A stretch of 64,000 nt of DNA from an uncultured cyanobacterium (GTDB lineage Bacteria; Cyanobacteriota; Cyanobacteriia; Leptolyngbyales; Leptolyngbyaceae): positions 1 through 64,000 of the forward strand of contig CAVYAN010000049.1 in the NCBI GenBank assembly GCA_963766075.1, written 5' to 3'. Positions within the stretch are counted from its first letter, which is position 1. The number at the start of each line of letters is the position of its first letter. Position numbers and translations under genes: made by a program. Under the pieces are notes generated by a model, which saw only the letters and a program-made list of their open reading frames with translations, searched no databases and had not been told where the DNA came from. Below are positions 52,084 through 55,013 of this stretch, in pieces.

Positions 52084-52532
52084 ATGGCTGATCCTGTCAC
52101 TTGGACCGCTGGCGCAATCGCCAGTCTGGCCGTTCAAAAATTCCTCGAATCCGGTGCTGGCGAGTTGGGCAAGAAGTTCACCACCGAGGCAATTACTAAA
52201 ATGGGCCTGCTGTGGGAGCAGGTGAAGACTAAGCTCATGGGCAAATCGGCCAAGTTGGACGAGGCATTGGTGAAAGTGGAACAGGGCGATCTGCGCTGCG
52301 TTGGATACCGTCGCCAAGCATCTGGATGTGGCCATGGACGAGCATCCCGACTTTGCGGCAGAACTCAAGGTTCTGGCCAATGAGATTCATGCCGGTAAGC
52401 TGCAAGACAATAGCAACATGGTCCAAAACGTGATCGGCAATGACAATAGGAATGTTCAAGCAAAGGCTGAACAGGGGGGGAAACAATTTATTGCTGAGAA
52501 GATGTTACTTTGGGGCGACCGAGGCGGATTGA
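52084..52532 (+). CDS. Small helical protein (Bell-like) with a Q/N-rich C-terminal motif, with two apparent extra bases near 52294 and 52505
   Basis: Stitched from shifted frames: MADPVTWTAGAIASLAVQKFLE...LWEQVKTKL...AMDEHPDFAAELKVLA...QDNSNMVQNVIGNDNRNVQAKAEQGGKQFIAEKM(Y)FGATEAD*. Confidence 0.7.
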
Positions 52533-55013
52533 CTGGAGTCGGCGGGAGGGGCACCGCCAAAGAAAAGTACCCCACACAACTTATCCCACAGCGGCGCGAT
52601 CGCTTTTATTGGGCGAGACGATGACCTAGAGCGGTTGCACCAGCAGTTGCAGGCGGAGAGGTCCGTGGCGATTGCGGCGGTGTCTGGCATGGGCGGGATT
52701 GGCAAGACGGAGTTGGCGTTGCAGTATGCGCTGCGCCATCTGAACGCACCGCCCCCTGCGGCATCGACCTATGCCGGGGGCATTTGCTGGCTGCGGGCGC
52801 GGGAAGATCTGGGGCCGCAAATTATCGCCTTTGCCCAGGCCCATCTGAATCTGCCAGTGCGCGAGGATTTGGCCTTGGCAGCGTGGCCTATTGCTGGCAG
52901 CACTGGCGGGCGGGGCGGGTGTTGGTGGTGCTGGATGATGTGCAGGACTATGAGCACCTGCGACCGTGGCTGCCGCCGCCGGAGTCGCGCTTTCGGGTGC
53001 TGTTGACGACGCGGCTGACGCTGAGATCGCCGGTGCAGAATTTTGAAATTCGCGTGCTGTCGGAGCCCAAGGCGCTGGAGTTACTGGGCGATCACCAGCC
53101 CAGGGGCGCGAGGGTCCAGATCCTCGGTTTCTCGAAGAAGCCGGAGATCTGGAGCGGCAGATCTGCTCACTGGCTGGGCTATTTGCCCTTGGGGATTGAA
53201 CTGGTGGGGCGCTATTTGGCCAGACGCCGGATCTGCCGCTGGCGGAGCTGTGGCAGCGGTTGCAGGCGCAGAAGCTGGGGGCCAGGCGTTGTTGCGGGCG
53301 GAGCCGGGGATGACGGCGGCACTGGGGGTGACGGCGGCGTTTGAGTTGAGCTGGCAGGCTTTGACGGAGCCAGCGCAACGGTTGGCAGCGCTGCTGAGTC
53401 TGTTTGCTCTGGCGGAGATAGCTTGGCCGTGGGTGGTGGACGGTTGGCCAGAGGCAGACGCGGAAGATCTGGAGGAGTGGCGGGAGCAGTTGTTGAGGTT
53501 GAGTTTGCTGGAGCGGGTTGGGGCGGGGCGGTATCAACTGCATCAACTGCTGCGGGAGTTTTTTGCGCTGAAGTGGGCGCAGTACCCAGACCGGGAGGAG
53601 TTGGAGGTGGTGGTGTGGGATGGGGTGCTGAACGCCGCGCAAAGCAGCTCTGAACGCCCCGATCGCTCCTTGTTGGCAGAAACTAACCTGGTCCTGCCCC
53701 ATTTGCAAGCAGCGATCACCCGCCGTGAAACGGCGGGGCAAGACGAGGCAGAAGCCCTCAGCGTAGCTTGGCTAGCGACACTCTACGACTCGCAGGGACG
53801 CTATGGCGAGGCGGAACCGCTCTATGCGCGATCGCTCACATTTACGAACAGCAGCTCGGCCCTGACCATCCCCATGTCGCCTCCAGCCTCAACAATCTCG
53901 CCGAACTCTATCGCGCGCAAAGCCGCTATGCCGAGGCAGAGCCGCTGTTAACGCGATCACTTGCGATTCGGAACAGCAGCTCGGTCCCGACCATCCCGAT
54001 GTCGCGCTCAGCCTCAACAACCTGGCCCACTCTATAAAGCGCAAGGCCGCTACGGCGAGGCGGAACCGCTCTATAGCGCGTCGTCGGCATCCACGAAAGC
54101 AGCTCGGCCCCGACCATCCCGATGTCGCCCAAGCCTCAACAATCTGGCCAGACTCTATAGACGCAAGGCCGCTACGCCGAGGCGGAACCGCTGTATGCGC
54201 GATCGCTTGCGATTCACGAACAGCAGTTCGGCCCCGACCATCCCGATGTCGCCCTCAGCCTCAACAACCTGGCCCACCTCTACACGATGCAAGGCCGCTA
54301 CAGCGAGGCGGAACCGCTCTTTAAGCGCGATCGCTGAGCATTCACGAACAGCAGCTCGGCCCCGACCATCCCGATGTCGCCACACAGCCTCAACAATCTG
54401 GCAAAACTCTACAATCGCAAGGCCGCTATGCCGAGGCGGAACCGCTGTAAGCGCGATCGCTGGCGATTCGCGAACAGCAGCTCGGCCCCGACCATCCCGA
54501 TGTCGCCATCAGCCTCAACAATCTGGCAGCACTCTACGAATCGCAAGGCCGCTACGCCGAGGCGGAACCGCTCTTCGTGCGATCGCTGGCGATTGACAGA
54601 AAGGTGTTCGGCGCCGATCATCCCGATGTCGCCACCAGCCTCAACAATCTGGCATGACTCTACGTCGCAAGGCCGCTACGCCGAGGCGGAACCGCTCTAT
54701 GCGCGATCGCTCGGCGATTCGCGAACAGCAGTTGGGAGCCAACCATCCCGATGTCGCCACCAGCCTCAACAATCTGGCATACCTCTACAAATCGCAAGGC
54801 CGCTACGGCGAGGCGGAACCGCTCTTTGCGCGATCGCTGGCAATCAAACAAAAAATGCTGCCGGAAAACCACCCCAGCCTTCAGCTTGGTTGGGACAACT
54901 TTCGCTCCTTTCTGCAAGCCGTGGTGCAAGCCAACCGGGTCGCCGAACTCTCGGACCATCCCCTAACCCAAGCCCTGCTCCAAGACCTGCAAGGGGCGCA
55001 GAACGACGCCTAG
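52533..55013 (+). pseudogene. NB-ARC (STAND) ATPase plus TPR protein (NLR-like), with many frameshifts (sequencing error or true decay)
   Basis: PHNL..SGA..FIGR, Walker A GMGGIGKTELA, Walker B LVVLDDV, LLTTR, LGYLPLGIEL, FELSW and LHQLLREF, then about nine 42-aa TPRs ([25 protein letters not shown]). Confidence 0.85.
53760..54880 (+). repeat. About nine near-identical 126-bp TPR-coding repeats
   Basis: Recurrent AGCCTCAACAA(T/C)CTGGC...CAAGGCCGCTA...GAGGCGGAACCGCT at a spacing of about 123-130 bp. Confidence 0.9.

What the first reader, a model, noticed from the sequence alone, without database searches (positions are those of the whole stretch)
52084..55013. Bell-like effector and NLR separated by one in-frame TGA: candidate readthrough-based amyloid signalling locus
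Seen: the small gene ends ...YFGATEAD-TGA (52530-52532). The same frame continues without any indel as LESAGGAPPKKSTPHNLSHSGAIAFIGRDDDLERL into the NB-ARC P-loop. There is no ATG or GTG before the conserved PxNL...FxGR motif, and the first TTG (52635) lies past it. The stop context is TGA-CTG. Known: fungal and bacterial NLRs signal to helical effectors (HeLo/HeLL, bacterial Bell domains) through shared amyloid motifs, and UGA-C is a leaky stop context. Inference: one transcript could give an abundant short effector carrying the motif and, by readthrough, a rarer full-length receptor with the identical motif. That would be a two-component immune or cell-death switch encoded in one frame. Caveat: local indel density is high, and the last residues of the small gene need a 1-nt correction near 52505.
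Basis: partly seen in the sequence, partly recalled or inferred. Interest (0 to 1): 0.85.

Follow-up and report, generated by a model that had tools for sequence, protein, structure and literature searches.

The report
Conserved stop-readthrough signal in cyanobacterial immunity
Many cyanobacteria join a small cell-death gene to an immune-receptor gene through one stop codon followed by a conserved folded RNA, which most likely lets some ribosomes read through so that one gene yields both the killer protein and its receptor.

Summary
The TGA at 52530-52532 is real and no accident. The same in-frame stop joins a Bell-like effector to an NB-ARC or NACHT receptor in 84 distinct cyanobacterial loci (77 TGA, 7 TAG, 0 TAA, no sense-codon version found). 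Searches with this element alone, without the stop, gave 58 new hits; 54 sit directly behind TGA/TAG. The receptor lacks a usable start, its part upstream of the first ATG is under protein selection (dN/dS 0.20), and it lacks the second amyloid-like motif that ordinary two-gene loci carry. No selenocysteine machinery was found. Best reading: structure-stimulated readthrough makes a short effector and a longer effector-receptor fusion sharing one amyloid motif. Readthrough, amyloid and defence are inferred, not shown. No Rfam family or paper was found. Nostoc PCC 7120 and Acaryochloris marina carry it, so it is directly testable. This window's receptor copy is frameshift-ridden (assembly error or decay).

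The parts
52084..52532 (+). Bell-like helical effector gene (about 148 codons), with two extra bases (52292, 52505) relative to close relatives
   Evidence: intact homologue L022 folds as helices over residues 9-103 with a disordered tail
52418..52514 (+). N/Q/G-rich C-terminal tail, candidate amyloid signalling motif
   Evidence: nearly the same tail is repeated at the start of the adjacent receptor in two-gene locus L008 (score 76)
52530..52532 (+). In-frame TGA, preceded by U; candidate readthrough codon
   Evidence: conserved as TGA/TAG in 84 loci
52533..52540 (+). 8-nt spacer between stop and stem
   Evidence: same length in all 73 elements laid out; C+8 and G+9 invariant
52541..52558 (+). 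Stem 1 (52541-52545 with 52554-52558) and G-rich 8-nt loop (52546-52553)
   Evidence: 98% of cells paired, two pairs with changes on both sides; pair types
52559..52573 (+). A-rich loop (52559-52569) and C-run (52570-52573) that can pair with loop bases 52548-52551: probable pseudoknot stem 2
   Evidence: covariation clear in 32 loci, only invariant G-C pairs in the 36-locus class that includes this window
52533..53770 (+). NB-ARC and helical part of the receptor, without its own start codon; frameshifted in this assembly
53770..55013 (+). TPR repeats (126-nt units, most with an indel here) and final TAG at 55011-55013

Best explanation
The locus is one recoded gene. Most ribosomes stop at the TGA and release a short Bell-like effector with an amyloid-type tail. 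A fraction meet the hairpin or pseudoknot 8 nt downstream, at the mRNA entry channel, insert an amino acid at the stop through a near-cognate tRNA and go on to make effector-motif-NB-ARC-TPR. On sensing a trigger (probably phage) the long form oligomerises, its motif copies seed amyloid folding of the identical motif on the short form, and the Bell domain attacks the membrane. The RNA element replaces the second gene start and the duplicated motif of ordinary Bell/NLR pairs and sets the receptor-to-effector ratio. SHOWN: conserved in-frame stop, conserved stem with covariation, no usable start, protein selection behind the stop, no second motif, no Sec genes. INFERRED: readthrough itself, its level, the pseudoknot, amyloid templating, defence.
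For: (1), query spanning effector and NB-ARC, 301 genomes: of the 29 listed matches that span both domains 28 have a stop inside (my count from the table; 312 weaker matches were not listed). In 30 protein-selected loci, the window included, the stop lies 25-32 codons before FxGR or its equivalent (25 TGA, 5 TAG). (2) Stop-blind tests: a pattern for the element without the stop gave 35 matches in 185,579 species genomes, 35 of 35 behind TGA (30) or TAG (5), all cyanobacterial; 26 were not in the training set. A covariance model without the stop gave 14 new hits in 150 genomes, 14 of 14 behind TGA/TAG, and 14 new hits in a second set of 151 genomes, 11 of 14 behind TGA, the 3 others being the lowest scores, under 24 bits. 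A metagenome pattern: 3 of 4. In all 54 of 58. (3) Stop choice 77 TGA, 7 TAG, 0 TAA; U before the stop in 66 of 84; CU after it in 74 of 84, against TAA 564, TAG 591, TGA 357 of 1512 and U in 414 of 1512 for long frames of this genome. (4) Stem 1 on the 30 protein-selected loci: 98% paired; whole structure 82% against 27-52% when slid, 0 of 500 shuffles. Third codon positions of the element in 27 protein-selected loci are fixed (G+9 27/27, G+24 27/27, G+18 26/27, G+30 26/27) while third positions of invariant FxGR and P-loop residues vary. (5) Only 1 of 69 loci has an ATG and 3 of 69 any standard start at least 12 codons before FxGR; the zero frame is open for 240 nt in 73 of 73, the other frames closed in 72 and 70 of 73; dN/dS is 0.20 between codon 15 and the P-loop in 16 disjoint pairs. 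RefSeq is left with ATT or ATC starts for 4 of 5 named plasmid copies. (6) Two-gene loci repeat the effector tail at the receptor start (median alignment score 64, n=12); element loci do not (median 15, maximum 24, n=71). (7) An 8-nt spacer plus compact pseudoknot and UGA-CUA are known readthrough signals (PMC3159437, passages; PMC7026636, passages). (8) Bell/amyloid signalling kills infected cells in E. coli (bioRxiv 2024.11.07.622273, abstract, Discussion and passages).
Against: No protein, ribosome or RNA data were seen. The hairpin is weak on its own: only 1 of 6 folded examples has z below -2 and the window copy has z 0.44 (pseudoknots are not modelled). Stem 2 in a single register pairs in only 62.5% of cells; the swap control is a small effect (3.92 against 3.73 bp, 4 of 1000); in 36 loci, this one included, it rests on G-C pairs whose Cs are partly fixed by a proline codon. 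26 loci came from a pattern that fixes much of the element, which inflates its apparent conservation, including the low synonymous rate (0.11 against 0.38). Loci are related, so counts are not independent. One element is followed by only 32 codons (L143). Bell membership could not be shown by profile or fold. A full Bell domain on the receptor must be kept inactive, which is not explained. This window's receptor may be decayed.
Confidence: 0.74

Rival explanations
1. Two separate proteins: ribosomes terminate and re-initiate at a non-standard codon right behind the stop (CUG, CUA, GUG) or start at the P-loop methionine; the hairpin governs coupling or mRNA stability.
For: Codon +1 is Leu in 65 of 73 loci, often CTG, and GTG in 2; RefSeq calls a GTG start at +1 in one plasmid copy.
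Against: Codon +1 is Pro in 4, Lys in 1 and Ile in 1, and about half of the Leu codons are CTA; a P-loop start would cut a region under protein selection (dN/dS 0.20); the receptor would have no amyloid-like motif; it does not explain the absence of TAA (0 of 84).
Confidence: 0.09
2. Conditional suppression by a dedicated factor or tRNA: the element binds a host factor, a metabolite or a phage-borne suppressor, so that the receptor is made only under stress or infection.
For: Many unpaired bases are fixed (C+8, loop GG, A-rich loop), as in ligand- or protein-binding RNAs; the position resembles a bacterial SECIS.
Against: No SelA in 6 genomes, no SelB wing domain and no tRNA-Sec over cut-off in 5; both TGA and TAG are used; no tRNA with a stop anticodon in G000, though its tRNA set is incomplete. 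Fixed loop bases are also usual in plain readthrough pseudoknots (PMC3159437, passage).
Confidence: 0.08
3. RNA editing: an A-to-I change turns UGA or UAG into a Trp codon in part of the transcripts; the structure guides the deaminase.
For: TGA and TAG are each one change from TGG and TAA, which would need two, is absent. The bases around the stop are complementary to conserved bases behind stem 1 (78-93% at four of six positions), so the stop could lie in a duplex.
Against: That second stem shows no compensatory change; the edited A would sit in different places for TGA and TAG; no duplex-editing enzyme is known to me in cyanobacteria (recalled, not searched).
Confidence: 0.05
4. Assembly error or ordinary pseudogenes: a fused gene broken by a nonsense change.
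For: This copy is full of indels in the receptor.
Against: The same stop and element stand in 84 loci of many families and in finished plasmids of Acaryochloris marina and Nostoc PCC 7120 with open receptor frames of 760-1054 codons; no element was found behind a sense codon in a receptor context.
Confidence: 0.02

Closest known systems
Bell/BASS-NLR gene pairs (Dyrka et al., bioRxiv 2020.01.06.895854; read sections 5, 6, 7, 9 and passages)
   Same: Small helical effector with an N/Q/G-rich tail next to an NB-ARC or NACHT repeat protein in multicellular cyanobacteria; alpha/beta-hydrolase as an alternative effector; the same tails occur as paired motifs in two-gene relatives.
   Different: There are two genes, each with a start and a motif copy, or an all-in-one fusion. 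Here there is one motif copy, no receptor start, an in-frame stop and a structured RNA. The main text has 0 hits for stop codon, read-through and frameshift; its supplements could not be seen.
Bab/Agp amyloid abortive-infection system of E. coli (bioRxiv 2024.11.07.622273; abstract, Discussion, passages)
   Same: Bell-type effector with a MEPIS-like start, activated by amyloid templating; the functional model used here.
   Different: Two adjacent genes, activator not an NLR, no recoding.
Gammaretrovirus (MuLV) gag-pol readthrough signal and UGA-CUA type II signals (PMC3159437, passages)
   Same: Stop, 8-nt spacer, compact structure or pseudoknot with important loop bases; UGA-CUR context; short and long products from one frame.
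   Different: Eukaryotic ribosome and release factor, viral genes; no sequence relationship was tested or is claimed. Here bacterial chromosomal and plasmid genes, with both RF2 (UGA) and RF1 (UAG) codons (release-factor specificity recalled).
Bacterial SECIS / selenocysteine insertion (PMC7026636, passage)
   Same: Stem-loop immediately 3' of an in-frame UGA in bacteria.
   Different: No SelA, SelB or tRNA-Sec in the genomes tested; TAG also used; no Rfam match.
Phage Q-beta coat/A1 readthrough (PMC3159437, passage) and surveys of in-frame stops in prokaryotes (PMC7918605, PMC1914089; term searches only)
   Same: Functional readthrough on a bacterial ribosome; conserved in-frame stops.
   Different: No conserved 3' structure named in the passages seen; both surveys have 0 hits for cyanobacteria or TPR terms in the main text.

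Membership tests
Bell-domain effector | Short protein of about 120-140 aa with a helical domain of about 100 aa | tested here: met
   Upstream frames are mostly 120-175 aa; model of L022: helices over residues 9-103, pLDDT about 80, tail disordered
Bell-domain effector | Hydrophobic N-terminal helix with an acidic residue at position 2-3 (MEPIS-like) | tested here: met
   65 of 77 upstream frames match a loose pattern; definition
Bell-domain effector | Profile or fold match to a described Bell, HeLo or Bab domain | tested here: inconclusive
   No Pfam family over cut-off, no PDB sequence or Foldseek match; Atlas shows HetE-N on 14% of one cluster; the wider fold search was not obtained; the Bab paper says folds vary widely
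Bell-domain effector | Membrane damage or cell death on activation | not testable with these tools
   needs experiment
BASS amyloid signalling pair | Tail of about 25 aa rich in Q, N, G, poor in L, K | tested here: met
   last 35 aa against the preceding 100: N 14.0/3.2%, Q 11.1/6.9, G 10.5/5.8, L 3.6/10.1, K 5.0/8.6
BASS amyloid signalling pair | Same motif at the N-terminus of a separately encoded adjacent NLR | tested here: not met
   absent in 71 element loci (maximum score 24), present in two-gene relatives; the fusion would supply it instead
BASS amyloid signalling pair | Assignment to one of BASS1-11, and amyloid formation | not testable with these tools
   motif logos are in figures and supplements that could not be seen
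NLR-like STAND receptor | NB-ARC or NACHT plus repeats | tested here: met
   73 NB-ARC-type and 8 NACHT-type P-loops among 84 (one more NB-ARC has a variant P-loop)
Selenocysteine insertion | SelA, SelB and tRNA-Sec in the genome; UGA only | tested here: not met
   TAG in 7 of 84
Structure-stimulated stop-codon readthrough (MuLV type) | In-frame stop, about 8-nt spacer, conserved 3' stem | tested here: met
Structure-stimulated stop-codon readthrough (MuLV type) | Pseudoknot second stem | tested here: inconclusive
   A-U 17, C-G 10, G-C 1 and 4 unpaired at one position in 32 loci; no covariation in 36 others
Structure-stimulated stop-codon readthrough (MuLV type) | Measured readthrough that depends on the structure | not testable with these tools
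   needs reporter or proteomics
Programmed -1/+1 frameshift | Downstream gene in another frame, slippery site before the structure | tested here: not met
   zero frame open, other frames closed

The most novel reading that the evidence does not exclude
A portable, roughly 45-nt pseudoknot cassette programs stop-codon readthrough on the bacterial ribosome without selenocysteine machinery, at both UGA and UAG. Cyanobacteria shuffle it between different effectors (several Bell subfamilies, an alpha/beta-hydrolase, another helical domain) and different sensors (NB-ARC, NACHT, one membrane protein) to encode a complete two-component amyloid death switch in one reading frame, perhaps with readthrough itself switched by infection or stress.
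Probability: 0.6. Interest if true: 0.93.

Novelty: new variant of a known kind. Interest (0 to 1): 0.88.

Why it matters
Outside selenocysteine, an RNA structure that programs stop-codon readthrough in bacterial cellular genes is not something I could find described (8 paper searches, Rfam). It would give a minimal natural model for how a 3' structure competes with RF1 and RF2, a tunable tool for making two products from one gene, and a third architecture for NLR amyloid signalling in which effector and receptor motifs cannot drift apart. It also means that many cyanobacterial NLRs are annotated with wrong starts, and that screens that need two motif copies miss them. A copy lies on plasmid gamma of the model strain Nostoc PCC 7120 (PCC7120DELTA_RS01205/RS01200), so the test is cheap.

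Tried and rejected
Rfam: no family over its cut-off on 5 loci, nothing at the junction. Selenocysteine rejected. Frameshift at the A-rich stretch rejected. A lower stem over the stop codon: complementary but without covariation, kept only under the editing rival. Single-strand folding was uninformative. Viral contigs: 0 matches to one pattern. Only one copy of the element in G000, 85% complete. No RNA holder listed for the stretch; raw-read run X16 laid no reads, no test. Bell family assignment by Pfam, PDB sequence and Foldseek gave nothing; the wider structural search was not obtained, so fold-level membership stays open. Two look-ups in earlier findings were empty. Paper searches listed nothing that describes this element; the library lacks most subscription journals and bioRxiv supplements were closed, so a mention in the supplements of the Dyrka or Bab papers cannot be excluded. 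The tree is a quick one on 131 columns: 59 element and 18 own-start receptors are mixed (14 changes, at least 3 forced by strong branches; 42 of 500 shuffles as low); the window copy, NACHT-type and short rows were left out; it suggests shuffling but gives no direction. Rows dropped before the count of 84: L102, L144, L145, L148 (no stop, no long frame behind) and repeats of loci already held; L049 and four plasmid copies seen later are not in the 84.

Full report
Observation. The window comes from a cyanobacterial assembly of 126 contigs, 85% complete (phylum inferred from the named relatives). [quoted passage not shown] No ATG or GTG lies between the stop and the FxGR motif; the first ATG is inside the P-loop. 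Contigs of close relatives lack one base at 52292 and one at 52505, so the small gene is one frame ending at this TGA. The receptor part has about one indel per TPR unit while other long genes of the window are whole; whether this is poor polishing or decay cannot be told.

The stop is conserved. Among the first relatives, four genomes of four other genera had a TGA at exactly the same place. A search of 301 genomes with a query spanning both domains listed 29 matches over both; 28 hold a stop (my count). Cutting these and other loci out gave 30 (the window included) in which the stop lies 25-32 codons before FxGR or its equivalent. Other loci are ordinary two-gene pairs, in which the receptor has its own ATG and repeats the effector's tail.

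An RNA element follows the stop. In all these loci the stop is followed by 8 nt, a 5-bp stem, a G-rich loop of 8 (sometimes 9 or 11) nt, an A-rich stretch and a C-run. On the 30 protein-selected loci stem 1 pairs in 98% of cells; two of its five pairs occur as U-A, G-C, C-G and U-G; slid and shuffled controls fall far below. Third codon positions are fixed in the element but free in invariant residues downstream. The loop can pair with the C-run: in 32 loci one position is A-U 17 times and C-G 10 times, with 1 G-C and 4 unpaired; in 36 loci, this one included, the second stem is in another register and shows no covariation. The hairpin is therefore well supported and the pseudoknot probable. 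Folding single strands shows no special stability. Length changes inside the element keep the frame. No Rfam family matches.

Stop-blind test. A pattern for the element without the stop matched 35 places among 185,579 species genomes, all cyanobacterial, all directly behind TGA (30) or TAG (5); 26 were new. A covariance model without the stop hit 23 of 150 and 15 of 151 genomes; of 28 new hits 25 lie behind TGA or TAG and the other 3 are the weakest, under 24 bits. A metagenome pattern gave 3 of 4. The 84 distinct elements have 77 TGA, 7 TAG and no TAA, U before the stop in 66 and CU after it in 74; TAA ends 37% of long frames in this genome. Finished plasmids of Acaryochloris marina MBIC11017 (three copies), A. 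marina S15 and Nostoc PCC 7120 carry it before open frames of 760-1054 codons, where RefSeq uses ATT, ATC or a GTG at +1 as start. This removes assembly error as an explanation for the family.

The region behind the stop is translated but has no start. One of 69 loci has an ATG and 3 have any standard start early enough. Between codon 15 and the P-loop dN/dS is 0.20 in 16 disjoint pairs (own Nei-Gojobori script). Two-gene loci repeat the effector tail at the receptor start (median score 64, 12 loci); element loci never do (maximum 24, 71 loci). The tail is rich in N, Q and G, as described for BASS motifs (bioRxiv 2020.01.06.895854, section 9), and this window's tail is nearly the one that is paired in locus L008. 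The receptor can thus get a start and a motif only by translation through the stop. SelA, SelB and tRNA-Sec were not found in the element-bearing genomes tested.

The cassette is modular. Upstream lie several Bell-like subfamilies, an alpha/beta-hydrolase (L101, L103, L104; weak Pfam hits) and another helical protein (L078); downstream lie NB-ARC, NACHT and one membrane-type protein. On a quick tree, element-bearing and own-start receptors are mixed, which fits recombination but is poorly resolved.

Mechanism. The best fit is structure-stimulated readthrough (0.74): an 8-nt spacer plus compact pseudoknot is the MuLV signal and UGA-CUA a known leaky context (PMC3159437, passages). The short product would be the Bell-type killer, the long one the sensor, and amyloid templating would link them as shown for Bab/Agp (bioRxiv 2024.11.07.622273). 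Rivals are re-initiation at a non-standard codon (0.09), factor- or phage-dependent suppression (0.08), RNA editing (0.05) and artefact (0.02). Readthrough, amyloid and defence are not shown here. The effector has the size, helical build and N-terminal signature of a Bell domain, but no profile or fold match was obtained, so I call it Bell-like.

Novelty. The parts are known: Bell/BASS/NLR pairs, and structure-driven readthrough in eukaryotic viruses. Their union, and a non-Sec readthrough structure in bacterial cellular genes, were not found in eight paper searches, in the main text of the Bell paper or of two surveys of prokaryotic in-frame stops, or in earlier findings. Supplements of the bioRxiv papers and most subscription journals could not be seen. 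Verdict: real, a new variant of a known kind, interest 0.88.

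Noticed in passing
G000:C36:3270-3693: A second Bell-like gene in the same genome; the RNA model finds no element there.
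   Followed up: partly
L150 (G419:C79, near 96400, - strand): The element joins a Bell-like gene to a 252-aa protein with a hydrophobic segment and a long Pro/Ser-rich tail, not an NLR.
   Followed up: partly
L101, L103, L104 (metagenome contigs): The upstream gene is an alpha/beta-hydrolase-like protein with the same kind of N/Q-rich tail.
   Followed up: partly
L078: Upstream protein is a different helical domain without an evident amyloid-like tail, ending in TAG plus the element.
   Followed up: no
L143: Element followed by only 32 codons, with a run of A; probably a decayed or slipped copy.
   Followed up: no
L059: Bell-like gene ending TGA-CTG before an NLR-like match, but with a different downstream sequence; possibly a diverged element.
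   Followed up: no
L003: The upstream gene has a second in-frame TAG about 106 codons before the junction.
   Followed up: no
L155 (NC_003267.1): The Nostoc PCC 7120 receptor has NB-ARC and hits to an IS4 N-terminal profile near residue 970-990, perhaps spurious repeat hits.
   Followed up: no
window 55117-55299 (-): Small HicB-like/UPF0150 gene right behind the receptor; HicAB-like genes also lie between effector and receptor in L007 (recognised from recall).
   Followed up: partly
window 55019-55062 and 51573-51650: Short GC-rich inverted repeats on both sides of the locus, seen in the sequence.
   Followed up: no
window 50159-50698 (-) and 51044-51559: A 179-aa frame with no Pfam family and a neighbouring low-complexity repeat frame.
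   Followed up: partly
window 45541-46398 and 46334-49831 (+): A long secretion-type gene (TamB-like by recall) split by one frameshift near 46390.
   Followed up: no
L003:2657-2711: Weak match to NsiR1, 35.9 bits against a cut-off of 39.
   Followed up: no
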